A DNA stretch of 9,235 nt from Promethearchaeota archaeon (GTDB lineage: Archaea > Asgardarchaeota > Hermodarchaeia > Hermodarchaeales > Hermodarchaeaceae). Location of the stretch: positions 1-9,235 of the forward strand of contig JBHLMI010000048.1 in NCBI GenBank assembly GCA_048938295.1, written 5' to 3'. This document shows positions 1-9,235 of this stretch, piece by piece. The notes under the pieces were generated by a model that was not told the origin of the DNA, did no database searches, and worked only from the letters and a program-made list of their open reading frames with translations. Both the position numbers and the translations under genes were made by a program. The first letter of the stretch is position 1; every line of letters begins with the position of its first letter.

Positions 1-31
1 ACGATCCGTTGCGGTGGACAATCACTTTTTT
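1..31 (+). repeat. Array repeat copy 1 (right arm only, truncated by window start)
   Basis: GTTGCGGTGGACAATCACTTTTTT matches the right arm of copy 4 (GTTGCGGTGGACGACCACTTTTT). Confidence 0.85.
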
Positions 32-55
32 CATGTTATTTGTGTGCGCGTTGGG

Positions 56-946
56 TTAGAGGTAGGTTTCGGGTTCTTTTCTGTCGGGGTAGCCTTTGTG
101 TAGATCGCTTTGTGATTTGAGAACGCGTTTGCTCATGACCCGTGCGCCGGTGGGACAGTTTTTGACGCAGGCACAGCACCAGATGCATGCATTATGGTCG
201 GTGGTAATCAACTGCAGGTTGTATCCGATCATGGGGGATGGATTGGATGACACATGTTGAATTCGAATTGCAGCAGTGGGGCAGACGTCTACGCACGTGC
301 CGCATTTGGTGCATTGGTCTTCATTGGTGGAGGGGGTGGCTAATGCGCCGTAGTCGTACCAGGTGAGATTGGCACGCATGGATAACGAGTACGGGGTTGT
401 ACCAGGAGGAGTGACGGGGGAGAGGTCCTCCATGGTATCGACCTGTGCATATTTGTCCCGGATTTGTTGGCCAAACGCTTTGGCTTTGGCGAGATCTTTT
501 GTGTCAGGTCGTCCATGGGCTGTAGGTACTTCAGGGACGCTAAAGGAGTGTTCGCATAGAAAAACCCCTGCAGCGATGGGTTGGAATCCCACCTCGGAGA
601 CAATGTCGCCTAGTTCATAGAGTGCGTCCTCGTAGGCGCGGTTGCCGTAGGTGACGACAATGACGACTGGGATTTTTTGTGCCCGTTTAGCTCCATAGGG
701 TTCCCTGTTACCTGTGAGTCGTCGGATCCGGTAGGCGGCTTCGGTGGGGACGCGTCCGGCGTAGACGGGCACGGAGATAATGGCGAGCTCATCGGTGAAT
801 TCCTTAAATTGCTGGGTGCGTGCACTGGGCGGAGTCAGGTCTATGTGTTCTATGGGGGCTTGGATGCCTTGGGCGATAGCTTCAGCTACCTTCCTTGAGC
901 CCCCGGTTGGAGAGAAACTGATGACTTTAACAGCTCTAATTTTCAA
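56..946 (-). CDS. Flavodoxin-domain / 2x[4Fe-4S] ferredoxin fusion protein (EFR1-like family)
   Basis: N-terminal flavodoxin-type motifs FSPTGGSRKVA, VPVYAGRVP, YGNRAYEDAL, EHS and GRPD. C-terminal CxxCxxCxxxCP motifs CTKCGTCVDVCP and CIWCCACVKNCP. TTG start with GAGGT 8 nt upstream. Confidence 0.9.
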   Translation of the reverse strand: MKIRAVKVISFSPTGGSRKVAEAIAQGIQAPIEHIDLTPPSARTQQFKEFTDELAIISVPVYAGRVPTEAAYRIRRLTGNREPYGAKRAQKIPVVIVVTYGNRAYEDALYELGDIVSEVGFQPIAAGVFLCEHSFSVPEVPTAHGRPDTKDLAKAKAFGQQIRDKYAQVDTMEDLSPVTPPGTTPYSLSMRANLTWYDYGALATPSTNEDQCTKCGTCVDVCPTAAIRIQHVSSNPSPMIGYNLQLITTDHNACIWCCACVKNCPTGARVMSKRVLKSQSDLHKGYPDRKEPETYL

Positions 947-982
947 TGGAATTTACCTCAATTGGGTTTGAATTTATTGATG

Positions 983-991
983 TTATAAAAA
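983..991 (-). promoter_or_regulatory. Archaeal-type TATA box (TTTTTATAA) for the 56..946 gene
   Basis: Reads TTTTTATAA on the minus strand, about 36 nt upstream of the start, with an SD-like GAGGT (955-959) between. Confidence 0.6.
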
Positions 992-1025
992 TCTAACATA
1001 CCTTGAGAGACGTTTTGTGCGGCAC

Positions 1026-1089
1026 GGGAGCGGGTGTATCACTCGGAAACACGGGTGTTGTCCCAGACTGGGGTGGACGCTCATTTTTT
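1026..1089 (+). repeat. Array repeat copy 2
   Basis: GGGAGCGGGTGTATCACTCGGAAACACGGGTGTTGTCCCAGACTGGGGTGGACGCTCATTTTTT. Centre contains CCCA-GAC-TGGG hairpin. Confidence 0.93.
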
Positions 1090-1208
1090 GTCTTCTAATG
1101 ATTTCGCAGTTTTCTAATATGTGCTTTTCCAGTGAAGAAGTTTTATCTGCCCTGGCTTTGTGGAATCTGTATTGAGTATTGATTTTGCATGAATTGGTGG
1201 AGTTTGTT

Positions 1209-1556
1209 ATGGCGTTGATTGATACGGCGAAAATCTTGGCGAAGGCGGGTTCCATTGTGTGTATCATTTTAGGGATTCTTGCTGGTGTGTTGAATGGTCT
1301 TGTGATGTATGAAGAGTTTAGTGGACGGCATGGTATTGCTGTTGAGACTACTCTGTGGTTTTCATTAGCGATTGTCGCGGTGGTCTTCGGGTTCATTATT
1401 CTGTTCTATTGTGTGCCGAGGATCGACCAGGATCGGCAAACAGCAGCCATTTATCTGATTATTTTTGGTGTGATAGCGGCGATTGGTTCGTTCCTTGTCG
1501 GTGGGGTGTTAATATTCGTCGCAGGAATTTTGTTGGCGGTGGAGCAAGCGCGCTAA
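1209..1556 (+). CDS. Small integral membrane protein (about 115 aa, 3-4 hydrophobic helices), function unknown
   Basis: The listed ORF 1179..1556 has a better start at ATG 1209, preceded by GGTGGAG. Long hydrophobic stretches, and it is the sole long + strand ORF between repeats 2 and 3. Confidence 0.8.
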   Translation: MALIDTAKILAKAGSIVCIILGILAGVLNGLVMYEEFSGRHGIAVETTLWFSLAIVAVVFGFIILFYCVPRIDQDRQTAAIYLIIFGVIAAIGSFLVGGVLIFVAGILLAVEQAR

Positions 1557-1700
1557 TTGAACGAAGCCTAATAACCTGATGACGTGGGCATTGAGCTCGT
1601 AAATATCCCAAGCCAATTTTGTTAACGATGTGACTTTAGCCTCCCAACTCTTCTGAGGGATTCCTTGCAATGGACAGCTTGGGAGCCTTTTGTGCGATAC

Positions 1701-1769
1701 GGGAGCGGTTGTATCACTCGGAACACAGGTCCTGTAGACTATCCGTTGGGGTGGACGACCACTTTTTTT
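1701..1769 (+). repeat. Array repeat copy 3
   Basis: GGGAGCGGTTGTATCACTCGGAACACAGGTCCTGTAGACTATCCGTTGGGGTGGACGACCACTTTTTTT. Also shares the upstream flank TTTTGTGCG..ACG (1688-1701) with copy 2 (1013-1026). Confidence 0.95.
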
Positions 1770-1817
1770 GCTAGGTTTTAGGATGGCAAGAGTAATTAGA
1801 AACTAAAGAAGAATAGG

Positions 1818-2921
1818 TTGAGTGGTGTTGGTATGGCACGTGTGGGGTTGGTGGTTTGTTTCATGGGGCTATTGTGGGTTTCGTTGATGGGGGGGCTTCC
1901 GGGGGGAATGTTCGGTGTTGGTGCGGTGGAGGCGCAGAGTGGGGGGTTCAATTTTGTGGCTTATGGGGATACGCGGTCGCATGAGCTTCCGGCGGCGGTG
2001 TCACCGGTGCATGATGGGTTGGTGGCGATGTATCTTGGAGAAAATCCGGAGTTTGTGTTGCATACAGGGGATATGGTGATGGCGGGAGGGATCTGGGATC
2101 AGTGGGTGGAGTTTAACGATTCGATTCAAGGGATTTGGGCGGCAGGAATTCCTTTCTATGGTGTGGTGGGAAACCACGAAAAATACACGGGAACTTGGTA
2201 TGTGTATGATGAGGGATTGAACAATTATACCACCTTTTTTGATTTCGGTGATGCAGTGGATGTGCCCGGTGAAACAGAATTACAGTACGCTTTCACTTAT
2301 GAGGGCGTTCATTTCGTGTTCTTGAATACCGAGGATTACTTCGACGATATGTTTGGGGGTACGCAGCAGTTTAACTGCTCAAGTGGGCAAATGAATTGGT
2401 TATCCAGTTATTTGGTGACTGTCGATCCCGAGGAGTTTCTTGTGGTAACGTTTCATCGCACCGCTTGGTCCATTCTCTTTGATCAACCAAATCGCTGGGA
2501 GGAAGCGCAAACGATTCGTGATGACTTCCATGACCTGTTTGTGCAGTACGATGTCGATTTAGTCTTAATGGGCCATGATCATTATTATTATCGCACTCTG
2601 CGGGATGGGATCTATTATGTCACGACGGGGGGTGGAGGAGGCCCACTGGCAGAAATTGATGTGACGGCTCCGATTTGGCAACCAGGTGATGTGGCCGCTT
2701 CGGAGTACCATTACTGTAACATCAAAGTGAATTCCACCGATGTCACCGTGACAGCATACACATCCGACCACAGTCTGTTAGATTCTTTCAGTATTGAAAG
2801 ACCGAGTAACCCTCTCCCTGGCCCACCCATTGAACTTCTTGTCCTGGGTCTCTGTGTCGTTACCATCATTGTCATTATCATTGTCGTTGTTTTGATCCTC
2901 TATTGGCGAAGGAAAAGCTGA
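1818..2921 (+). CDS. Secreted, C-terminally membrane-anchored metallophosphoesterase (calcineurin-like superfamily, purple-acid-phosphatase-like)
   Basis: Five metal-ligand motif blocks: YGDTRS, HTGDMV, VVGNHE, VTFHR and GHDHYY. Hydrophobic N-terminal signal, Pro-rich linker, C-terminal TM helix and WRRKS tail. The start could be ATG 1833. Confidence 0.9.
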   Translation: MSGVGMARVGLVVCFMGLLWVSLMGGLPGGMFGVGAVEAQSGGFNFVAYGDTRSHELPAAVSPVHDGLVAMYLGENPEFVLHTGDMVMAGGIWDQWVEFNDSIQGIWAAGIPFYGVVGNHEKYTGTWYVYDEGLNNYTTFFDFGDAVDVPGETELQYAFTYEGVHFVFLNTEDYFDDMFGGTQQFNCSSGQMNWLSSYLVTVDPEEFLVVTFHRTAWSILFDQPNRWEEAQTIRDDFHDLFVQYDVDLVLMGHDHYYYRTLRDGIYYVTTGGGGGPLAEIDVTAPIWQPGDVAASEYHYCNIKVNSTDVTVTAYTSDHSLLDSFSIERPSNPLPGPPIELLVLGLCVVTIIVIIIVVVLILYWRRKS

Positions 2922-2948
2922 GGCCCGATACAATTAGCGCTATTGGAA

Positions 2949-2955
2949 TTTTTTT
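2949..2955 (+). terminator. Oligo-T tract (T7) 28 nt after the phosphoesterase stop; candidate archaeal-type terminator
   Basis: TTTTTTT directly downstream of TGA 2919-2921. Confidence 0.4.
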
Positions 2956-2995
2956 GTGTCCGATGAAAATTAATTGGATGTCCTGGAGTGGCCGA

Positions 2996-3058
2996 GGGAG
3001 CTTGGGTGTATTATTCGTGACAAGTTAATTACCGGGTTGCGGTGGACGACCACTTTTT
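2996..3058 (+). repeat. Array repeat copy 4
   Basis: GGGAGCTTGGGTGTATTATTCGTGACAAGTTAATTACCGGGTTGCGGTGGACGACCACTTTTT. Both arms are conserved and the centre is divergent. Confidence 0.92.
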
Positions 3059-3074
3059 GTTGATATTTGTGGGA

Positions 3075-3254
3075 TTATGCCTGTTCTTCGATGATCCAGA
3101 GGTGGCTGGTTTTGACTGAGCTGGGGAAATCGGGACCGATCGCGGGAATGATGGTGATGAGCGTGCCTTTGAGGGTGTTGAGGAAGTCCTCCAGTTTTTG
3201 TTTGTCGTGATTCATATCGATAGGGAGTTTGTGAACTTTGTAAGTTGACACCAT
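3075..3254 (-). CDS. 59-aa hypothetical protein missed by the ORF track: MVSTYKVHKLPIDMNHDKQKLEDFLNTLKGTLITIIPAIGPDFPSSVKTSHLWIIEEQA
   Basis: Hand-translated ATG(3254) to TAA(3075), 60 codons. SD GGGTGA at 3259-3264 and TATA TTTTTATAT at 3289-3297. It fills the unit between repeats 4 and 5. Confidence 0.85.
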   Translation of the reverse strand: MVSTYKVHKLPIDMNHDKQKLEDFLNTLKGTLITIIPAIGPDFPSSVKTSHLWIIEEQA

Positions 3255-3288
3255 TTACTCACCCAAGAGGTGTATCGGAGGATTGGAC

Positions 3289-3297
3289 ATATAAAAA
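3289..3297 (-). promoter_or_regulatory. Archaeal-type TATA box (TTTTTATAT) for the 59-aa gene
   Basis: About 35 nt upstream of ATG 3254, with a GGGTGA SD in between. Confidence 0.6.
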
Positions 3298-3317
3298 CTT
3301 GGAGTAGCGTAGACAAA

Positions 3318-3380
3318 GGGAGTAGGCGTATCACTTGGAAACACGGGTGTTTTTCGATTGGTTTGTGTGGATAACCATTT
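3318..3380 (+). repeat. Array repeat copy 5
   Basis: GGGAGTAGGCGTATCACTTGGAAACACGGGTGTTTTTCGATTGGTTTGTGTGGATAACCATTT. The short T-run overlaps the methyltransferase stop codon (3379-3381). Confidence 0.9.
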
Positions 3381-4035
3381 ACTTATCATGCGAGGTGTTG
3401 CGGGCATAGAGTTTCATATGCCAGATGAAGGTTTTTTGATGGACGAGTTGTGTGAAGCCGGTGTTTTTTAGCAGCGTGTCAATTGCTTTGACGGGGTGGA
3501 TGAAGGTTCGGAAGGGGTGGCGTCGTAGCCATAGGATGAAATTTTCCCATCCGATGGAGAGCTTGCTCGTTAAATTCGTCCGCGGGATTACGATGCCAAA
3601 GAATGTGCGAGCAAGGGCGGCGGATCGTTCAACGAGGGTTTGCCAATCGTCATAGCAACAGATTACTTTATCGAGGGTGACAATGTCGGTGGGGGAGAGG
3701 GTGGAGGCGATGTCGACGAAATCCCCATGATGGTAGCTAATGCGGTCCGTATGACCTTGTCGAGTGGCTTCCTCCTTTGTCGCTTCGATATAAGCCATGG
3801 AGGCTTCCACGTTAATGCTGTGGCGTAACCCAGCTTGTAGTAATTCGTGTTGAATTATGCCGATGCCACCACCAATATCGAGTAAGGTTTTTCCCTGGAC
3901 CCCTTGGCTTTTGAGGGCATCAACGAGTAGGTGCGTGGTTTTATTCATGCCCTTCACCCGATAGGTGCGGAGTTCCGCTTCAGCTACACTCCGATCGAAG
4001 GTCGTTTCAAGTACCTGATACTGACAACAGCCCAT
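3379..4035 (-). CDS. Class I SAM-dependent methyltransferase (substrate unknown; superficially BchM-like size and layout)
   Basis: Motif I LLDIGGGIG, acidic post-motif (VEAS), HGDF, and motif IV-like DIVTLDKVICCY. N-terminal MGCC. Confidence 0.88.
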   Translation of the reverse strand: MGCCQYQVLETTFDRSVAEAELRTYRVKGMNKTTHLLVDALKSQGVQGKTLLDIGGGIGIIQHELLQAGLRHSINVEASMAYIEATKEEATRQGHTDRISYHHGDFVDIASTLSPTDIVTLDKVICCYDDWQTLVERSAALARTFFGIVIPRTNLTSKLSIGWENFILWLRRHPFRTFIHPVKAIDTLLKNTGFTQLVHQKTFIWHMKLYARNTSHDK

Positions 4036-4120
4036 GATTCATGCTTCCATCTATTTAGGATAGAATAAGGTAACGCAACAAACTAGTTAATATCTCATTT
4101 GGAAAATCTGTACGGAAAGA

Positions 4121-4190
4121 AGCCTGGGTGTATTATGGCGTAAACATGGGTGCTGCACGATGCAGTTGGGACAGACGACCATCTTTCTTT
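4121..4190 (+). repeat. Array repeat copy 6
   Basis: AGCCTGGGTGTATTATGGCGTAAACATGGGTGCTGCACGATGCAGTTGGGACAGACGACCATCTTTCTTT. Centre hairpin CTGCA-CGA-TGCAG. Confidence 0.88.
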
Positions 4191-4342
4191 CAAGATGAAT
4201 TAGTCTCATAGTTTAGAAGAATAACACCCCGGTCTTTGAAGGCGCATCTCATAGAAATGAAGTTATTAGTATCTCAACTGACATTAAGGAGTGAAATTCA
4301 GCTCTACCAAGAATAGATGGAGGCGTTCCTCTGTCACAGTTT

Positions 4343-4960
4343 ATGAATGGAGAAAGAGTGAAGCCGAATCAAGTCCCGTATTTGGTTGCGTTTTTTGCCA
4401 GAGAGTATATGCCCAAAATAAAGGCGTTTCTCGAGACGGAGTATCCGACTCGTCAAGAAGGCGTAGAGGGGTTCACAACCGTGATGCGGGCAATTTATCC
4501 GCAGGTCTATCAGTTGCAACAGCAGTTACCCGAATCCCTAGCAGAAGAGATGATTCTAGAGCTTCCTGCGTTTATTAGTCTTCATGAGTGGGAGAAAGAG
4601 CCCAGAACATGGAACAAGGGAAAGAAAAAGGCGCTCACCGCGTTTCTGGAAGGACACGAGACGCCTGCCGATGAGTACGGGAATCCTGAGTTTCTTAGTG
4701 GTATGTTTGTCTCGATTATGATGTTATTGAATTCAACCTATAAGGGGCTAATCTCGCTAAGAGGTCTTTGCAGCAACTTCGAAGATGCCGTATACACTGA
4801 ATCCTATTTTAGCTCAGTTTATCATCAGTTTGAATATGAGATTTTTGTCAAAGGGCTCCTCAAAACCCTTAGCGATCTCAGAGGAATTCTTCCGTTAATC
4901 TATGAGATTGAGCGAAAACTCGCACTGTATCCACCCACTGGGGAACTGGAAAAGATGTAG
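4343..4960 (+). CDS. Hypothetical 205-aa soluble, probably helical protein; no family recognised
   Basis: Longest ORF between repeats 6 and 7, with protein-like composition and no recognisable motif. Confidence 0.75.
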   Translation: MNGERVKPNQVPYLVAFFAREYMPKIKAFLETEYPTRQEGVEGFTTVMRAIYPQVYQLQQQLPESLAEEMILELPAFISLHEWEKEPRTWNKGKKKALTAFLEGHETPADEYGNPEFLSGMFVSIMMLLNSTYKGLISLRGLCSNFEDAVYTESYFSSVYHQFEYEIFVKGLLKTLSDLRGILPLIYEIERKLALYPPTGELEKM

Positions 4961-4993
4961 GGAAACTAGAAAAAAGTACTACCTTTCAATTAA

Positions 4994-5061
4994 AGCCTAG
5001 GATTGTATGTCTGAACAGCAGGAGTTGTAGGATCCTCTGGCATGGACGACCACTTCTTTTT
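4994..5061 (+). repeat. Array repeat copy 7
   Basis: AGCCTAGGATTGTATGTCTGAACAGCAGGAGTTGTAGGATCCTCTGGCATGGACGACCACTTCTTTTT. Right arm intact, centre contains palindrome AGGATCCT. Confidence 0.85.
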
Positions 5062-5120
5062 CCCTTCGGTATTCTCCAAGCGGGGAAGTGTTAGTATGAC
5101 AGATGTTGGGAAGGACCTCT

Positions 5121-5163
5121 GCTGCAACCTTTAAAATGCAGCTCGCCAAAAACGAGAGAAAAA
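5121..5163 (-). terminator. Candidate terminator region downstream of the DUF4256 gene
   Basis: Minus strand has two T5 tracts (5148-5152, 5159-5163) and an inverted repeat GCTGCA/TGCAGC (5121-5142). Confidence 0.35.
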
Positions 5164-5189
5164 GCGTTGAAATTCGAAAATGTCAGAGT

Positions 5190-5756
5190 TTAGACTCGTA
5201 GCGAGCCGCGGAAGGCTCTAGAGCTATAGTATGAAGGCGCACTGTTGTGATAGACGAAGACGGTGTTGTAGCGGCGATCGCAAAAGAGGGCGCCGCCGAG
5301 TTTTCTGATATCAGGAGGGGTTTTTATCCAGCTTGAGGTCTTCGCATCGAACTGTCCGAGTTTCTGTAACGCTCGATATTGATCTTCGGTTAGAAGCTCA
5401 ATGCCCATAGCGGTGGCCATATCGATTGCGTTATTTTTTGGTTTCGCTGATTTCCGTGCGTCCTGCGCTTCACGGTCGTAGCAAACATTTCTGCGGCCTG
5501 TTGGAGTTTCTGGTGAACAATCATGAAAAATGTATTCACCCGTCTTTTTATCATGACCCACAACATCTGGTTCACCGCCAGTTCGTTCCATTTCGTTGAG
5601 TGACCACAGTTTGTCAGGATTCGCTTTCAACTTTGTTTGGATGTTAGCCCATTCAATCCCTTGATGGCGGTTCATATTGTTCTCAAAGCGGGCTTTCAAC
5701 ACGCGGAGTAGTTCTTCATGTTGTTTTGGTGACAACTCCTTTTTGAGTTTGCTCAT
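5190..5756 (-). CDS. DUF4256 family protein
   Basis: Recognised by family-typical strings: LKARFENNMNRH, LWSLNEMERTGGEPDVVG, RRNVCYDREA, MGIELLTE.QYR.LQKLG.FD.KTSSW, GGALFCDRRY..VFVYHN, RAFRGSLRV. Confidence 0.9.
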   Translation of the reverse strand: MSKLKKELSPKQHEELLRVLKARFENNMNRHQGIEWANIQTKLKANPDKLWSLNEMERTGGEPDVVGHDKKTGEYIFHDCSPETPTGRRNVCYDREAQDARKSAKPKNNAIDMATAMGIELLTEDQYRALQKLGQFDAKTSSWIKTPPDIRKLGGALFCDRRYNTVFVYHNSAPSYYSSRAFRGSLRV

Positions 5757-5778
5757 ACTCTGTAGTAATCGTCCCGTG

Positions 5779-5787
5779 TTTATAAAA
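5779..5787 (-). promoter_or_regulatory. Archaeal-type TATA box (TTTTATAAA) positioned for a leaderless DUF4256 transcript
   Basis: TATA centre about 26 nt upstream of ATG 5756, with no SD motif in between. Confidence 0.65.
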
Positions 5788-5942
5788 GCATCAACGCAAG
5801 GGTGACATTGACTTTCTAGCGTATGATCATGTAAAAGATAATAGCTCTATTTTCGTCAGAAAGGCATTAAAGCATACGCTTGGAAACCAAGTTCTTCTAG
5901 AGGACCCAGTGAGGATACCAGGGGAGATGATGTGTGCTGTAA

Positions 5943-5979
5943 GGAGTCTGGGTGTATGATGGTGGAAACTCGAATGTTG
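5943..5979 (+). repeat. Array repeat copy 8 (left half recognisable; right arm degenerate or lost)
   Basis: GGAGTCTGGGTGTATGATGGTGGAAACTCGAATGTTG aligns with copy 6 (CTGGGTGTATTATGGCGTAAAC). The expected GTGGACGACCAC-T-run is not recognisable at about 5990-6005, where the next gene's stop lies. Confidence 0.7.
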
Positions 5980-6003
5980 GAAGCCAAAATTTCATATGAT
6001 GCC

Positions 6004-6822
6004 CTATTGACGGAATTTGGGGAAATGGAGTTTGCCTTCTTGTTTCAGGTAGGAAAAGATCATGAGAACAAAGAGAACAATGGTGATGCCAACAAAAATG
6101 ATGGTGGAAATAACTGAAAACAATTCAAGAGGAGGAGGGAAAAGAGGAATCTGAGGTCCTGTGACCCGGCAGTAGTTTATGTAGAGTTGGGCATCAGGTT
6201 TTCCAGGGGCTTCGATTAGCTGCCAGTGGATGCGATAGTGGTGATAGGTGGCGTTAATATTAATTAGATCATGGGTGATGGTGGTGTAGTTGGTCCAGTA
6301 ACCGGGAGTTTCATTGATGTGTGGGTGGAGGGTGAGGAGATAGGAGTGAGTACCGTTCGGGAGAGGGGTGTCTGATGTGATGCTGGCGTTGAGCCCATAA
6401 AGTAGGATGAGGGCGGACGGTCCGGTGGCGCAACTTCGAAACTGGATGGTGACTTGGTTGATGTCCAAGGGGATGAAGTCTTGCCAGAACATAATGGTGT
6501 GCTCTTGGTTTGCGCGGGTGGGTTGCAGGAACAGGGTATCAGCATCTCCACCATTTTCGGTATCATTGATGAGATGGTATTGTTCTTTGGGTCCGGTGGT
6601 ATCGCCGGTAAAATGCCAGAAGGCGGGTTTAGTTGCGTTATGATCATTACCCTCCCAGCCACCAGGTTCTGTTATGGTGAAATCCCAATTGGCTACTAAA
6701 TCAACGGGAACAGGAAGTTGCTTTGACGCCCTAGAGAGAGGAACTTGGTTAGTTATCGGCGTCAGGGAGAATATGGTCAGTAAACTAATCAGGAGTAGAC
6801 AGGTTGTGAGCGATTTTTTCAT
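6004..6822 (-). CDS. Secreted / C-terminally membrane-anchored hypothetical protein (272 aa), probably beta-rich extracellular domain
   Basis: Signal peptide MKKSLTTCLLLISLLTIFSL, several N-x-S/T sequons (NATK, NDTE, NASI, NGTH, NETP no, NYTT, NATY), PPPLEL then a TM helix and basic tail. SD GGGTGA at 6829-6834. Confidence 0.82.
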   Translation of the reverse strand: MKKSLTTCLLLISLLTIFSLTPITNQVPLSRASKQLPVPVDLVANWDFTITEPGGWEGNDHNATKPAFWHFTGDTTGPKEQYHLINDTENGGDADTLFLQPTRANQEHTIMFWQDFIPLDINQVTIQFRSCATGPSALILLYGLNASITSDTPLPNGTHSYLLTLHPHINETPGYWTNYTTITHDLININATYHHYRIHWQLIEAPGKPDAQLYINYCRVTGPQIPLFPPPLELFSVISTIIFVGITIVLFVLMIFSYLKQEGKLHFPKFRQ

Positions 6823-6975
6823 TCCTTTTCACCCGCTGGAGATGCTATTTCACCGCTGGAATGTGAGGATAAATGTTCTTTACCGGTTTAAAGAACGCAT
6901 TGGTCCTTATGTGAATATAAAGAAAAGATTGAGAAAAACCGAATACACCATTTCGTGCAGGACCCCTCAAAGATT

Positions 6976-7027
6976 GAGCCGAGAATGTCAATGACCATGA
7001 GTTGATTGGAGTTGACGACCACTTTTT
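6976..7027 (+). repeat. Array repeat copy 9 (shortened centre)
   Basis: GAGCCGAGAATGTCAATGACCATGAGTTGATTGGAGTTGACGACCACTTTTT. The right arm GACGACCACTTTTT is exact and ACCATGAGT is shared with copy 10. Confidence 0.8.
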
Positions 7028-7081
7028 GTATGCTATTTTTTAACTTGGATGTCTTATATGTGATAGGTCGACGAGGAGGCC

Positions 7082-8869
7082 TTGTGTACGTCAACTGCTG
7101 TGCTCATGAAGTTGTTGGAAACAGCGCCGTGGCGCTATGACCAGGGGATTGATTTTCTCACACTGGGTGTTGATTCGAAGCTTAAAAAACGGATTGCAGA
7201 TGAATTTATCTTTCCGTCGGATGATGTTCTTGAAATAGGGAGTGGAACGGGTTCCTTGGCGTTGTTGTGTGCCCAGAAAGGGGCGCAGGTGATGGGCATT
7301 GATGTATCACCTACAATGATTGCATTAGCTCAAACCAAAGTGGCGAAGGCCCGGTTGTCGGATCGGGTTCAGTTTCGGGAAATGGACCTGACGGAAATTG
7401 ACCAGTTGCCCGATGCCTCCTTTGATGTGGTGATTGCCACCTTGGTGTTTAGTGAATTGTCGGAGGTGGAGCAGTTTTATGCGCTCCGTGAAGCGTGGCG
7501 GCTGCTTCGCCCAGAGGGACGGCTAATCATTATGGATGAAGTTCGACCCCAATTGCTCCGCAAGATGCTTCCCTACTACATGTTACGTGTCCCTCTCACA
7601 ACATTCACTTTTCTATTGAGCCAAACAACGACCCATCGGGTGAAGAATCTCGAAACAAAGCTCGAAATATCCGGATTTCGAATTACCATGCAAGAGCAGC
7701 ATTTACTAGATTCGATTATGTTACTCGTCGCCACCAAACAACCCCAACGACCCATTGAAGCAGCAGGTCCTCGTCTGTTTCCAACGGTTCACGTTGGATC
7801 ACGAATGAAGTATGTGGCTGAAACTATTTTTCGTTGGGTAGGTGTCCCTATCACACCCGGGTATATCGCTGTGGGACAGCCCTCCGATGAAAGCCCTGTT
7901 CTAGTCACATGCAATTATGACTTGACGGTTCGCCGCGTTCTAAAAACACTTCAACACGCACAGGTTGATTGCTTTCTACTGGTAGCTCCAACTCGGGGAA
8001 TCAACGTGTGGTGTGCCTCTTGTGGTGGAGATTTTACGGCACACTCCGTTATCGCGGCAATCAAGCTTAGTGGCATTAACAACCTGGTGCAGCACCGACA
8101 TTTGTTTCTACCTCAACTGGCAGCACCGGGAGTTGACCCCGATGTGATTAAGGAGGAGACGGGATGGTCAGCACAGTTTGGACCAGTGAAAGCCAAAGAT
8201 ATACCCACCTACTTGAAGAATGGAGCACAGAAAACCGAGGCCATACGCACTGTACGATTTCCGGTGTCAAAGCGCTTAGAAATGGCAAGTCTATATGCGA
8301 TCATAATTTCACTCCTTGCAATCCCCATCAGCCTAATCTTTGCACCCCCCAAGCTCCTCACGACCCTAGGAATCATTTGGCTGCTTATCTGCGGTGCCTA
8401 TCTTCTTTCGCCATATCTCCCGAGTAGATCTGGGTTCGTGAAAACGCTGGTGTATGGCATCTGTGCCATCTCCGTTGTCCTACTTGTGGCCCTTTATACC
8501 ACGGGGAGCCTGTTAGGATTGCCATGGGAACTTCTTCTAACGATTCTTGTTTTGCTAATCTTAGGGGTTGATTTCAACGGGATGACTCCGATACTACCCA
8601 GCGACCTCGGTCGTCTACTCTATGGCCGAGGTCACTCAGAAATGCCCTTCTTCACAGGAAAGTATCCGCTTCAACCCTATGGACGAATCACCGAGGATGT
8701 GGAGTCATGTATTGGATGTGGGATGTGCGTACAAGTCTGTCCAAGGAATGTCTACCAGTTAGATAAAGCAAGACGTAAGGCGGATTTAATACACCCCAAG
8801 GACTGTGTCAACTGTAATGCTTGTGTTCATCGATGCCCCGCACATTGCCTTCACATTATCAAATCATGA
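7082..8869 (+). CDS. Fusion: class I SAM methyltransferase + HgcA/CdhD-like corrinoid-binding domain + ~4 TM helices + HgcB-like 2x[4Fe-4S] ferredoxin (HgcAB-like fusion with N-terminal methyltransferase)
   Basis: EIGSGTG motif I in a UbiE-like N-terminus. SPVLVTCNYDLT, TRGINVWCASCGGDFT and LPQLAAPGV match the corrinoid domain of the HgcA/CdhD family. A hydrophobic block follows, then CIGCGMCVQVCP (8708) and CVNCNACVHRCP (8804). The exact start (TTG 7082 vs ATG 7106) is uncertain. Confidence 0.85.
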   Translation: MCTSTAVLMKLLETAPWRYDQGIDFLTLGVDSKLKKRIADEFIFPSDDVLEIGSGTGSLALLCAQKGAQVMGIDVSPTMIALAQTKVAKARLSDRVQFREMDLTEIDQLPDASFDVVIATLVFSELSEVEQFYALREAWRLLRPEGRLIIMDEVRPQLLRKMLPYYMLRVPLTTFTFLLSQTTTHRVKNLETKLEISGFRITMQEQHLLDSIMLLVATKQPQRPIEAAGPRLFPTVHVGSRMKYVAETIFRWVGVPITPGYIAVGQPSDESPVLVTCNYDLTVRRVLKTLQHAQVDCFLLVAPTRGINVWCASCGGDFTAHSVIAAIKLSGINNLVQHRHLFLPQLAAPGVDPDVIKEETGWSAQFGPVKAKDIPTYLKNGAQKTEAIRTVRFPVSKRLEMASLYAIIISLLAIPISLIFAPPKLLTTLGIIWLLICGAYLLSPYLPSRSGFVKTLVYGICAISVVLLVALYTTGSLLGLPWELLLTILVLLILGVDFNGMTPILPSDLGRLLYGRGHSEMPFFTGKYPLQPYGRITEDVESCIGCGMCVQVCPRNVYQLDKARRKADLIHPKDCVNCNACVHRCPAHCLHIIKS

Positions 8870-8934
8870 ACGTAAAATGATGGAACCATGAGTGTTGTAG
8901 ACGAACTGTGGCGGTTGATAGCCACTTTCTTTTT
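8867..8934 (+). repeat. Array repeat copy 10
   Basis: TGAACGTAAAATGATGGAACCATGAGTGTTGTAGACGAACTGTGGCGGTTGATAGCCACTTTCTTTTT. The left end coincides with the fusion gene's TGA stop. Confidence 0.78.
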
Positions 8935-9045
8935 CAAAAAAGATTGATGGGGAGAATACGGCTGAACTCGTTGTGGTGAGCATATTAGGCAAATTATTTC
9001 TGGGGGTTGTCGTGTAGTGGGTAAAGGTAGGTGGTTGGTTCGTTG

Positions 9046-9235
9046 ATGGAGATTACGTTGGGTGTGTTGTTTTGGGGGTATGTGATGGCGTACTGTGTGC
9101 ATGTCGTCGAGGAAGCGGCTGTGGGTGAAGGGTTCATTGAGATGATGCGTACCACCTTTCATCCAGACTATACGGGTCGGATGTTCTTTGGATTTAACCT
9201 CATGATTTTTTTGGTGTTTGTCGCTGGGATTGTAG
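9046..9235 (+). CDS. HXXEE-domain membrane protein, 5' part only (runs off window)
   Basis: Hand-translated open frame MEITLGVLFWGYVMAYCVHVVEEAAVGEGFIEMMRTTFHPDYTGRMFFGFNLMIFLVFVAGIV... has HVVEE after a hydrophobic helix. In-frame TAG at 9028 bounds it upstream. Confidence 0.8.
   Translation, partial: MEITLGVLFWGYVMAYCVHVVEEAAVGEGFIEMMRTTFHPDYTGRMFFGFNLMIFLVFVAGIV

What the first reader, a model, noticed from the sequence alone, without database searches (positions are those of the whole stretch)
1181..9235. Sawtooth strand skew that resets at each repeat, independent of gene direction
Hand counts of + strand G/C per 120 nt, early vs late in a unit: 1201-1320 38/12 vs 1561-1680 25/29; 1981-2100 49/18 vs 2701-2820 21/34 (same gene); 3061-3180 45/17; 3421-3540 45/15 vs 3901-4020 31/31; 4381-4500 34/24 vs 4801-4920 21/23; 5221-5340 41/21 vs 5521-5640 21/30; 6241-6360 48/10 vs 6661-6780 35/21; 7201-7320 38/19 vs 8281-8400 19/39; 9001-9120 53/10. 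The first unit barely decays (61-300 78/47 vs 721-960 78/53). Synonymous codon endings change along the phosphoesterase gene from G/T to C. Known: single-stranded DNA accumulates C>T and A>G deamination, giving G/T-rich strands, and skew also flips at bidirectional origins. Inference: each unit has repeatedly been processed on its own from the repeat. Options are strand displacement or rolling circle exposing the + strand from its 5' end, an origin in each repeat, or + strand transcription/R-loops started at the repeat.
Basis: partly seen in the sequence, partly recalled or inferred. Interest (0 to 1): 0.88.

Follow-up and report, generated by a model that had tools for sequence, protein, structure and literature searches.

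The report
Strand-skew sawtooth in archaeal gene-cassette arrays
In an Asgard archaeon, every gene cassette in an array that starts at the end of the 16S rRNA gene becomes strongly G-rich and C-poor on one DNA strand just after the boundary repeat, fading over about 400 bases whichever way the gene points, which suggests a one-directional DNA or RNA process starting at each repeat.

Summary
All 16 hand counts reproduce. At 4-fold degenerate sites the + strand GC skew falls from 0.71 (0-200 nt after a repeat) to -0.15 (>1100 nt). All 10 genes show the fall, in both orientations.

- **Not a general gene property:** ordinary genes of this genome show no such gradient.
- **Source:** the window is a whole contig of a Hermodarchaeia (Asgard) genome.
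- **The repeats:** they are copies of the last bases of the 16S rRNA plus its roughly 135-nt 3' trailer. The array begins directly at the 16S 3' end.
- **Replication:** the sawtooth recurs at 65 repeats in 11 other species of the genus and in a second repeat family.
- **Pooled fit:** amplitude 0.73, e-fold length about 411 nt.
- **Composition near the repeat:** sense and antisense genes give the same repeat-strand composition (G about 0.48, C about 0.08).
- **Other properties:** the bias also reaches amino-acid usage, is conserved among orthologous cassettes despite 46% 4-fold divergence, and comes without G-run enrichment.

Best reading (inferred): a recurrent, short-range, one-directional displacement or resynthesis of the repeat-sense strand, starting at each repeat's 3' edge. 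Simple cytosine deamination does not fit, because G rises far more than T. The repeats fail three defining integron tests.

The parts
1..31 (+). 3' part of a type-A boundary repeat, cut by the contig start
   Evidence: nhmmer match to repeat profile positions 51-81; sequence
32..1013 (-). Cassette 0: flavodoxin-like/4Fe-4S protein gene at 56-946, antisense to the repeat
   Evidence: Pfam Fer4 families. The + strand 4-fold skew by thirds is 0.73/0.68/0.62. There is a 94% identical orthologue in another species.
1014..1091 (+). Type-A repeat
   Evidence: 49.8 bits
1092..1688 (+). Cassette 1: small membrane protein gene at 1209-1556 (sense)
   Evidence: 4-fold skew 0.82/0.50/0.54. Orthologues in 5 species.
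1689..1769 (+). Type-A repeat
   Evidence: 52.1 bits
1770..2991 (+). Cassette 2: metallophosphoesterase gene at 1818/1833-2921 (sense)
   Evidence: Pfam Metallophos. 4-fold skew 1.00/0.03/-0.06, with G38:C0 in the first third.
2992..3060 (+). Type-A repeat
   Evidence: 37.5 bits
3061..3306 (-). Cassette 3: 59-aa ORF at 3075-3254 (antisense)
   Evidence: ORF list. 4-fold skew 1.00/0.50/0.00.
3307..3384 (+). Type-A repeat
   Evidence: 47.4 bits
3385..4107 (-). Cassette 4: methyltransferase gene at 3379-4035 (antisense)
   Evidence: Pfam methyltransferase families. 4-fold skew 0.44/0.68/0.30. Orthologues in 5 species.
4108..4190 (+). Type-A repeat
   Evidence: 57.1 bits
4191..4989 (+). Cassette 5: unknown 205-aa protein gene at 4343-4960 (sense); weak gradient
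   Evidence: 4-fold skew 0.10/0.20/-0.29. Orthologues (79-81% amino-acid identity) lie in Promethearchaeota/Hermodarchaeota MAG contigs.
4990..5061 (+). Type-A repeat
   Evidence: 39.5 bits
5062..5931 (-). Cassette 6: DUF4256 gene at 5190-5756 (antisense)
   Evidence: Pfam DUF4256, E = 2e-90. 4-fold skew 0.68/0.27/0.14.
5932..6008 (+). Type-A repeat (degenerate)
   Evidence: 36.7 bits
6009..6951 (-). Cassette 7: 272-aa protein gene of no known family at 6004-6822 (antisense; possibly secreted, not tested)
   Evidence: 4-fold skew 0.83/0.66/0.44. The gradient is kept in 3 orthologues at 68-72% identity.
6952..7029 (+). Type-A repeat
   Evidence: 32.6 bits
7030..8862 (+). Cassette 8: methyltransferase / CdhD-like / 4Fe-4S fusion gene at 7082-8869 (sense)
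   Evidence: Pfam. 4-fold skew 0.17/-0.05/-0.12.
8863..8933 (+). Type-A repeat
   Evidence: 40.5 bits
8934..9235 (+). Cassette 9 (cut by the contig end): membrane protein gene starting at 9031 (sense)
   Evidence: ORF translation. 4-fold skew 1.00 in the first third.

Best explanation
The window is a cassette array of a Hermodarchaeia (Asgard) archaeon.

**Shown: anatomy.** Each cassette holds one gene, in either orientation. It is bounded by a direct repeat that copies the last bases of the 16S rRNA plus its roughly 135-nt 3' trailer, ending in a small hairpin and a T-run. The array starts directly at the 16S rRNA 3' end, and cassettes are shuffled as units between species.

**Shown: the skew.** A strand-specific substitution bias acts on the strand that carries the repeat in the sense of rRNA transcription.
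- It switches on at the last base of each repeat and decays with absolute distance, with an e-fold length of about 400 nt.
- It drives neutral sites to about 48% G and 8% C, and it also shifts amino-acid usage.
- It has persisted while the species diverged.

**Inferred: mechanism.** At every repeat, a one-directional, short-range event recurs in which the repeat-sense strand downstream is displaced as a single strand or resynthesised. Candidates are:
- an R-loop from transcripts starting at the repeat;
- a D-loop;
- nick-primed strand displacement at the recombination site.
Tracts end stochastically, so bases nearest the repeat are exposed most often. Damage on the exposed strand, or errors in the new strand, would be fixed mostly as G. 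That fits better with lesion or abasic-site bypass inserting C opposite than with plain C>U deamination.
For: **Gradient at neutral sites**
- Window.
- Pooled over 82 units in 12 species, sense and antisense genes give the same repeat-strand composition in the first 150 nt: G 0.45/0.51, C 0.08/0.07, A 0.18/0.16, T 0.30/0.26.
- Exponential fit: amplitude 0.73 (0.58-0.88), length 411 nt (279-645). The antisense baseline of +0.25 equals the genome's usual codon skew.
- The decay follows absolute distance, not relative position. In 35 of 41 units near exceeds far (Wilcoxon 2e-8), and p = 7.5e-7 using relatives only.

**Onset and direction**
- The bias starts in the first 20 nt after the repeat, and skew is about 0 to -0.14 just upstream.
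- A gene-intrinsic model fails. Sense genes lack C-rich 3' ends and antisense genes lack G-rich 5' ends.
- Contig-level skew sign follows repeat orientation in 15 of 15 related loci. Flanks outside the arrays have skew near 0.
- A second repeat family gives the same profile in 6 species and contributes 10 of the 23 repeats pooled for the window's genome.

**Mutation-like character**
- 4-fold sites are affected far more than codon positions 1+2.
- Amino-acid shifts are opposite in sense genes (V, G up; P, T down) and antisense genes (H, T, Q, P up; G, V down).
- G-runs and G4 motifs are not enriched (439 observed against 493 +/- 16 in shuffles).

**Still acting**
- Orthologous cassettes keep the profile at 68-94% identity.
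- Sites that differ between orthologues are still skewed (0.39), close to what a stationary process predicts.

**Breaks or ends must occur at the repeats**
- Cassettes are reordered between species with orientation kept.
- The 16S end is duplicated with the repeat.
- One repeat is split.
Against: - No enzyme, promoter or nick site was identified. No integron integrase scores above its cut-off.
- The repeats do not fold significantly.
- No AT-rich, TATA-like stretch is visible by eye about 26 nt before the repeat edge. This is an inspection only, not a test.
- The total 4-fold substitution rate near the repeat is only about 1.1 times that far from it. My rough calculation for a pure extra-damage model expects about 1.5 times.
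- The strength of the skew does not correlate with conservation of the upstream or downstream repeat (Spearman -0.05 and -0.19). It also differs reproducibly between cassettes.
- T is hardly enriched, so the classical ssDNA C>T signature is weak.
- Genes that are probably highly expressed in this genome are C-rich, not G-rich, on the non-template strand at synonymous positions. This argues against transcription alone.
Confidence: 0.5

Rival explanations
1. The repeat-sense strand just after each repeat is selected to be G-rich and C-poor, rather than mutated that way. Possible reasons are keeping a single-stranded DNA or RNA intermediate unstructured, or favouring RNA:DNA hybrids that prime or terminate something.
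For: - The total substitution rate is not clearly raised near the repeats. That is compatible with a fixation bias.
- The level of skew is specific to each cassette and conserved among orthologues.
- All exchanges favour G rather than following one chemical pathway.
Against: - The effect is largest at 4-fold sites and smoothly exponential over several hundred nt, in unrelated genes of both orientations.
- G-runs and G4 motifs, the usual functional units of R-loop or G4 elements, are slightly depleted relative to composition.
- It distorts protein composition, which is a cost.
Confidence: 0.15
2. The gradient is imprinted during cassette mobilisation, when a cassette is excised or copied as single-stranded DNA starting at the repeat in a rolling-circle-like way. 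It is only inherited in the resident array.
For: - Cassettes move as units.
- Skew strength is a property of the cassette, not of the present neighbouring repeat.
- In one contiguous array, skew and repeat conservation both fade with distance from the 16S gene.
Against: Orthologous cassettes differ at 46% of 4-fold sites, yet all keep a skew of about 0.6-0.7, and changed sites are still skewed. A past imprint should have decayed. Only a few rearrangements separate the species, so each event would have to be massively mutagenic.
Confidence: 0.2
3. Each repeat is a bidirectional replication origin, and the sawtooth is ordinary leading/lagging-strand skew.
For: - The sign of the skew (G and T excess) is that of a leading strand.
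- The repeat contains a GGAAAC motif and G-rich blocks faintly reminiscent of archaeal origin recognition boxes (by eye and from memory only).
Against: - There is no opposite-sign skew to the left of the repeats. It only decays to about 0.
- Ten origins in 9 kb, all in one orientation, are implausible.
- The range is only about 400 nt.
Confidence: 0.03
4. The pattern is a by-product of coding: signal peptides, Pro/Thr-rich tails, codon usage, or a general 5'-to-3' gradient within genes.
For: With one gene per unit, a universal fall of coding-strand skew from 5' to 3' would mimic a direction-independent sawtooth (my own derivation). Two of the + strand genes, at 1209 and 1818, do start with hydrophobic stretches rich in G/T codons.
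Against: - The effect is strongest at 4-fold sites.
- Ordinary genes show a difference of only 0.036 between first and last third.
- Sense genes lack C-rich 3' ends and antisense genes lack G-rich 5' ends.
- Non-coding edges show the bias too.
Confidence: 0.02

Closest known systems
Integron cassette arrays, including clusters of attC sites without an integrase (CALINs), reported as enriched in Asgard archaea (Ghaly et al. 2022, PMC9668308)
   Same: Tandem single-gene cassettes of accessory functions (glyoxalase, DinB, methyltransferases, hydrolases) separated by 80-135-nt repeats. The cassettes are reshuffled between species with orientation kept, and the array is anchored at one fixed site. 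That paper lists Hermodarchaeia genomes with 2-6 'attC' sites and no integrase.
   Different: - The repeats are conserved in sequence and show no attC-type hairpin.
- No IntI scores above its cut-off.
- About half of the genes are antisense.
- The repeat is a copy of the 16S rRNA 3' end and trailer.
- I found no report of a per-cassette strand-skew gradient in integrons.
Strand-displacement mutation gradient of vertebrate mitochondrial DNA (time spent single-stranded), and the APOBEC gradients in retroviral cDNA
   Same: A strand-specific compositional gradient at neutral sites, set by distance from a one-directional start point and independent of gene direction. The exposed strand becomes G/T-rich and C-poor. 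(Established knowledge, from memory.)
   Different: Here the range is about 400 nt and restarts at every repeat. G rises far more than T, and no rise in rate is seen.
GC skew with R-loops downstream of eukaryotic CpG-island promoters and terminators, and the asymmetry near transcription start sites (Ginno et al. 2012/2013; Polak and Arndt 2008; from memory)
   Same: Positive GC skew on the non-template strand that starts at a transcription landmark and fades within 1-2 kb. Here the landmark is a copy of the rRNA terminator region, oriented the same way as rRNA transcription.
   Different: No promoter has been shown, and there are no G-clusters. The skew lies inside unrelated coding sequences of both orientations. 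Genes likely to be highly expressed in this genome carry the opposite synonymous-site skew.
[quoted passage not shown] 2022, PMC8813620)
   Same: The 3' flank of the single 16S rRNA gene serves as an integration site in another Asgard lineage.
   Different: That is a single 8-kb element with a gene resembling a homing endonuclease. It is not an array of single-gene cassettes with trailer repeats, and no skew was reported.

Membership tests
Integron / CALIN cassette array | Tandem array of short, mostly single-gene cassettes separated by recombination-site repeats | tested here: met
   10 repeats and 10 one-gene units in 9.2 kb. Arrays are present in 12 of 14 genomes of the genus.
Integron / CALIN cassette array | attC sites: little sequence conservation, but an imperfect hairpin (R''-L''/L'-R') formed by one strand | tested here: not met
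   RNAalifold finds 0 consensus pairs. Single-strand DNA folds of either strand have z-scores from -0.24 to +0.39 for the core repeat. The only stable hairpin is a local one in the 16S-proximal extension. The attC covariance model itself could not be run.
Integron / CALIN cassette array | Integron integrase (IntI) next to the array | tested here: not met
   For TIGR02249, the best match in the genome scores 87 bits against a cut-off of 265 and lies on another contig. The genome is 91.6% complete and the region upstream of the 16S gene is not assembled, so absence is not proven.
Integron / CALIN cassette array | Cassette genes mostly in one orientation, read from a common promoter | tested here: not met
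   5 of 10 genes in the window are antisense. Pooled over species, 66 are antisense and 57 sense.
Integron / CALIN cassette array | Cassettes move as units | tested here: met
   Orthologues of 9 of the 10 window cassettes occur in other species in a different order but the same orientation relative to the repeats.
Replication-origin GC skew | Skew changes sign at the origin, with opposite signs on the two sides | tested here: not met
   Skew is about 0 to -0.14 upstream of the repeat and +0.3 to +0.44 downstream, with no mirrored decay.
Single-strand deamination gradient (mitochondrial type) | C>T and A>G on the exposed strand, so both G and T rise and the substitution rate goes up | tested here: inconclusive
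   C and A fall and G rises by 0.22, but T rises by only 0.05. The implied q(C>T)/q(G>A) is 1.1 while q(A>G)/q(T>C) is 4.3. The near/far rate ratio is about 1.1. Polarisation by parsimony is unreliable at this level of divergence.
Promoter- or terminator-linked R-loop GC skew | A transcription start or read-through at the landmark, and G-clusters that seed the hybrid | tested here: inconclusive
   The repeat copies the rRNA trailer and is oriented the same way as the 16S gene. G3+ runs and G4 motifs are not enriched. Transcription cannot be tested with these tools.

The most novel reading that the evidence does not exclude
Hermodarchaeia carry a previously undescribed cassette system. [quoted passage not shown] Each repeat acts as a one-directional start site for strand displacement (an R-loop, a D-loop, or nick-primed synthesis used for cassette exchange). 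That activity is frequent enough to rewrite synonymous sites, and even protein composition, over about 400 nt of every cassette. If so, the skew is a readable footprint of an active recombination or priming mechanism with no known enzyme.
Probability: 0.4. Interest if true: 0.9.

Novelty: new variant of a known kind. Interest (0 to 1): 0.8.

Why it matters
Strand-asymmetric composition is one of the few footprints that DNA transactions leave in sequence. Here it resolves single cassettes, and it does so in uncultured Asgard archaea, the closest prokaryotic relatives of eukaryotes.

- **Where and in which direction.** The footprint shows exactly where (the 3' edge of each rRNA-trailer repeat) and in which direction an unknown process starts. 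It links gene-cassette exchange to the rRNA locus.
- **A testable prediction.** It gives a concrete expectation for stranded RNA, R-loop, single-strand DNA or nick mapping.
- **A caution for other analyses.** In such arrays codon usage, and even amino-acid composition, are set partly by position relative to a repeat. This affects codon-based inference of horizontal transfer and expression level.
- **A possible marker.** If general, the sawtooth could be used to find active recombination or priming sites in other cassette arrays.

Tried and rejected
- **Rfam.** Scans of the window and of array loci found nothing relevant, and there are no tRNA genes.
- **Repeat structure.** A consensus RNA structure of the repeat gave zero pairs. 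attC-like folding gave z-scores near 0.
- **Integron integrase.** Only a Xer-like match, below the cut-off.
- **Polarising substitutions by parsimony.** I used singletons and then nearest pairs with outgroups. This suggested net loss of G near repeats. I reject it as unreliable, because 4-fold sites differ at 46% and the stationarity check contradicts it.
- **More close triplets.** A wider clustering of units to obtain them yielded only two clusters, and the script then failed.
- **G-quadruplex or G-run selection.** Not enriched.
- **Dependence on repeat integrity.** No correlation with the profile score of the upstream or downstream repeat.
- **Type-B repeat as the 23S trailer.** The 23S 3' end lies on C20 and has no type-B match there.
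- **C62.** It is another strongly skewed contig without repeats. It carries core genes (ribosomal proteins, glycosyltransferases), and its skew coincides with a GC-rich stretch at two convergent gene ends. I judged it not analogous and did not pursue it.
- **GC-biased gene conversion.** It would raise the frequency of both G and C, yet GC content near the repeats is not raised.
- **Literature.** Searches for a described skew gradient in integron or Asgard cassette arrays found none.


Full report
**1. The observation**

The window is the whole contig C31 of a 2.52-Mb, 66-contig genome. The contig has GC skew +0.183 and AT skew -0.105, among the most extreme in the genome.

About 80-nt direct repeats, ending in GGTGGACGACCAC plus a T-run, lie at 1-31 (cut by the contig start), 1014-1091, 1689-1769, 2992-3060, 3307-3384, 4108-4190, 4990-5061, 5932-6008, 6952-7029 and 8863-8933. 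All are on the + strand. Each interval holds one gene, five on each strand.

Over all sites the fall of skew within units is modest but non-random (circular-shift p = 0.016, random anchors p = 0.005).

At 4-fold degenerate sites it is striking. The + strand skew is 0.71, 0.59, 0.28, 0.26, 0.13 and -0.15 for 0-200, 200-400, 400-600, 600-800, 800-1100 and >1100 nt after a repeat. In all ten genes the first third in + strand order exceeds the last third. The phosphoesterase gene goes from G38:C0 to G18:C17.

**2. Controls**

With one gene per unit, a direction-independent sawtooth is arithmetically the same as coding-strand skew falling from 5' to 3' in every gene. I therefore tested ordinary genes.

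Across 1565 genes outside the arrays, 4-fold coding-strand skew is -0.20, -0.23 and -0.24 by thirds. The mean difference is 0.036 (sd 0.32), against about 0.3 in all 15 array genes.

A gene-intrinsic model is also excluded by the pooled data. Sense genes do not have C-rich 3' ends and antisense genes do not have G-rich 5' ends. Only the side next to the repeat's 3' edge is affected. The second refutation test therefore also fails to refute.

**3. What the locus is**

The genome is archaeal (SSU model). Orthologous cassettes lie in contigs titled Promethearchaeota / Candidatus Hermodarchaeota, so this is an Asgard archaeon of the Hermodarchaeia.

On contig C48 the same repeat lies directly after the 3' end of the 16S rRNA gene. 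A second copy there includes the last 7 nt of the 16S (CACCTCC) and 84 nt of trailer at 88% identity. In another species, one 27.7-kb contig runs from the 16S gene through its trailer straight into the array.

The boundary repeats are thus copies of the 16S 3' end and trailer, oriented the same way as rRNA transcription.

A second, related repeat family (type B, about 113 nt, ending in a GGGAGGC hairpin and a T-run) forms another array on C11+C18. Those two contigs are joined by a split cation-efflux gene.

Cassette genes are typical accessory functions: glyoxalase, DinB, hydrolase, methyltransferases, transporters.

Orthologues of 9 of the 10 window cassettes occur in other species in a different order, but always in the same orientation relative to the repeats. 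The cassettes therefore move as units.

The repeats do not behave like attC sites. There is no consensus structure, and fold z-scores for the core repeat are near 0 on either strand. No integron integrase scores above its cut-off.

Ghaly et al. 2022 list Hermodarchaeia genomes with a few 'attC' sites and no integrase. I could not check whether those are these repeats.

**4. Replication in independent data**

Type-A repeats occur in 12 of 14 other genomes of the genus and in 1 of 4 genomes of a sister genus. None were found in the 22 more distant genomes of the phylum that were searched.

In 15 of 15 fetched loci the sign of the locus-wide skew follows repeat orientation. Flanks outside the arrays are near 0.

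The profile around 65 repeats from 11 other species is 0.33-0.38 in the first 150 nt, about 0.19 at 300-450 nt, about 0.1 by 500-700 nt, and about 0 just upstream. Type-B arrays in six species give 0.42, 0.34, 0.25 and 0.21 per 100 nt, against 0.0-0.1 upstream.

Pooled 4-fold sites (15,240 sites, 82 units) show the same repeat-strand composition near the repeat for both orientations:
- sense genes: G 0.45, C 0.08, A 0.18, T 0.30;
- antisense genes: G 0.51, C 0.07, A 0.16, T 0.26.

An exponential fit gives amplitude 0.73 (bootstrap 0.58-0.88) and length 411 nt (279-645). Baselines are -0.02 (sense) and +0.25 (antisense); the antisense value equals the genome's normal codon skew.

The decay follows absolute distance in short, medium and long units. 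In 35 of 41 units near exceeds far (Wilcoxon 2e-8). Orthologous cassettes are not independent, so these p-values overstate the evidence somewhat.

**5. Nature of the bias**

- **Onset.** It starts in the first 20 nt after the repeat, including non-coding DNA.
- **Codon positions.** It is much weaker at positions 1+2 (a shift of about 0.13) than at 4-fold sites (about 0.6).
- **Proteins.** It still moves amino-acid usage in opposite directions. Sense genes gain V and G and lose P and T. Antisense genes gain H, T, Q and P and lose G, V and A. This is how a mutational or conversion pressure behaves, not selection on the protein.
- **G-runs.** G3+ runs (439 against 493 +/- 16) and G4 motifs (3 against 7.5 +/- 4.8) are not enriched.
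- **Conservation.** Orthologous cassettes keep their individual profiles at 68-94% identity.
- **Divergence.** Between orthologues, 4-fold divergence is 0.46 near and 0.47 far from the repeat. Sites that differ are still skewed (0.39), and the base compositions of differing and identical sites are close to what a stationary G-favouring process predicts (with my own calculation). The bias has therefore acted throughout the divergence of these species, without obvious hypermutation.
- **Which exchanges carry it.** Under stationarity the asymmetry sits in A>G against T>C (4.3-fold), C>G against G>C (4-fold), C>A against G>T (2-fold) and T>G against A>C (1.6-fold). C>T against G>A is only 1.1-fold. 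These ratios follow partly from the composition itself.
- **Repeat integrity.** Skew strength does not correlate with conservation of the neighbouring repeats.

**6. Mechanism (inferred)**

The facts call for a process that:
- starts at the 3' edge of each repeat;
- runs one way, in the direction of rRNA transcription;
- has tract lengths of a few hundred nt;
- treats the two strands differently;
- recurs often enough to hold neutral sites at a skewed equilibrium.

I favour recurrent displacement or resynthesis of the repeat-sense strand. This could be an R-loop from transcripts starting at the repeat, a D-loop, or nick-primed strand displacement at the site where cassettes recombine.

The preference for G over T fits bypass of lesions or abasic sites on the exposed strand with C inserted opposite better than it fits plain cytosine deamination. 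This last step is speculation.

The points against this reading are listed in the Against line. Briefly, no enzyme or promoter was found, the substitution rate is barely raised near the repeats, and genes that are probably highly expressed show the opposite synonymous-site skew.

Rival explanations:
- an imprint acquired during mobilisation as single-stranded DNA, weakened by the stationarity result;
- selection for a G-rich, C-poor strand, which cannot be excluded because the rate is not raised, but which is unlikely given the smooth decay, the lack of G-run motifs and the cost to proteins;
- a bidirectional origin at each repeat, contradicted by the one-sided profile;
- coding artefacts, refuted.

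**7. Comparison and novelty**

The array works like an integron, but it fails three of five defining tests (attC fold, IntI, co-orientation). Its attachment sequence is the 16S rRNA 3' end and trailer.

The 16S 3' flank is known as an insertion site for one element in Heimdallarchaeum.

The gradient resembles the strand-displacement gradient of mitochondrial DNA and the R-loop-linked GC skew at eukaryotic promoters and terminators. It differs in range, in restarting at each cassette, and in spectrum.

I found no description of such a sawtooth in the held literature. I rate it a new variant of known kinds. There is a substantial chance that it marks a new recombination or priming system.

Noticed in passing
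G000 contig C48 (L007) 1-1445: The 16S rRNA gene carries large insertions relative to the archaeal SSU model. One, of about 610 nt (about 130-740), contains an open reading frame; shorter ones lie near 1160-1200 and 1330-1430. They are probably rRNA introns.
   Followed up: partly
G000 contigs C11 (L010 12783-13637) and C18 (L004 1-11834): A second cassette array with a related 113-nt repeat (type B). C11 and C18 are joined by one cation-efflux gene split across the contig ends. Type-B arrays occur in 8 of 12 other genomes of the genus and show the same sawtooth. What lies at the start of this array is unknown; no rRNA or tRNA gene is present in the assembled parts.
   Followed up: partly
L004 (C18) 5334-5367 and 5888-5927: One type-B repeat is split into its 3' and 5' halves by about 520 nt of unrelated sequence. 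This may show where recombination crosses over, between the conserved halves at the variable centre of the repeat.
   Followed up: no
window 1013-1091, 1688-1769 and other repeats: Within the type-A repeat, the block CGGGTGT(A/T)T occurs twice as a direct repeat (GAGCGGGTGTAT ... ACACGGGTGTTGT). The two copies are separated from the terminal hairpin by a variable spacer of 8-12 nt. They could be protein-binding sites.
   Followed up: no
G000 contig C33 15829-15879 (L009 7830-7879): A solitary partial type-A repeat with an antisense methyltransferase cassette lies between an aldehyde:ferredoxin oxidoreductase gene and radA. In three other species the orthologous methyltransferase cassette sits inside an array.
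   Followed up: partly
G000 contig C62 (L005) 16400-18000: A GC-rich stretch (0.55-0.63) with GC skew about -0.5 spans the convergent 3' ends of a beta-propeller protein gene and an unknown 618-aa gene. It lies on a contig of core genes and has no repeats. The cause is unknown.
   Followed up: partly
G000 contig C1 (L011) 900-5000: Third-codon-position GC skew changes sign sharply near 2600, between an ORF containing a LAGLIDADG-like domain, a small-GTPase gene and an unknown gene. There is no type-A or type-B repeat there.
   Followed up: no
window 7082-8869: An unusual fusion protein: an N-terminal SAM methyltransferase, a CdhD-like (CO dehydrogenase/acetyl-CoA synthase delta) segment, hydrophobic and probably membrane-spanning stretches (by eye), and a C-terminal 4Fe-4S dicluster. 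It is conserved as a cassette in at least three other species.
   Followed up: no
whole genome G000: Synonymous positions of ordinary genes prefer C over G on the coding strand (4-fold mean skew about -0.22). Third-position skew reaches about -0.7 in genes likely to be highly expressed (pyruvate:ferredoxin oxidoreductase, hydrogenase subunit, RadA, small GTPases).
   Followed up: partly
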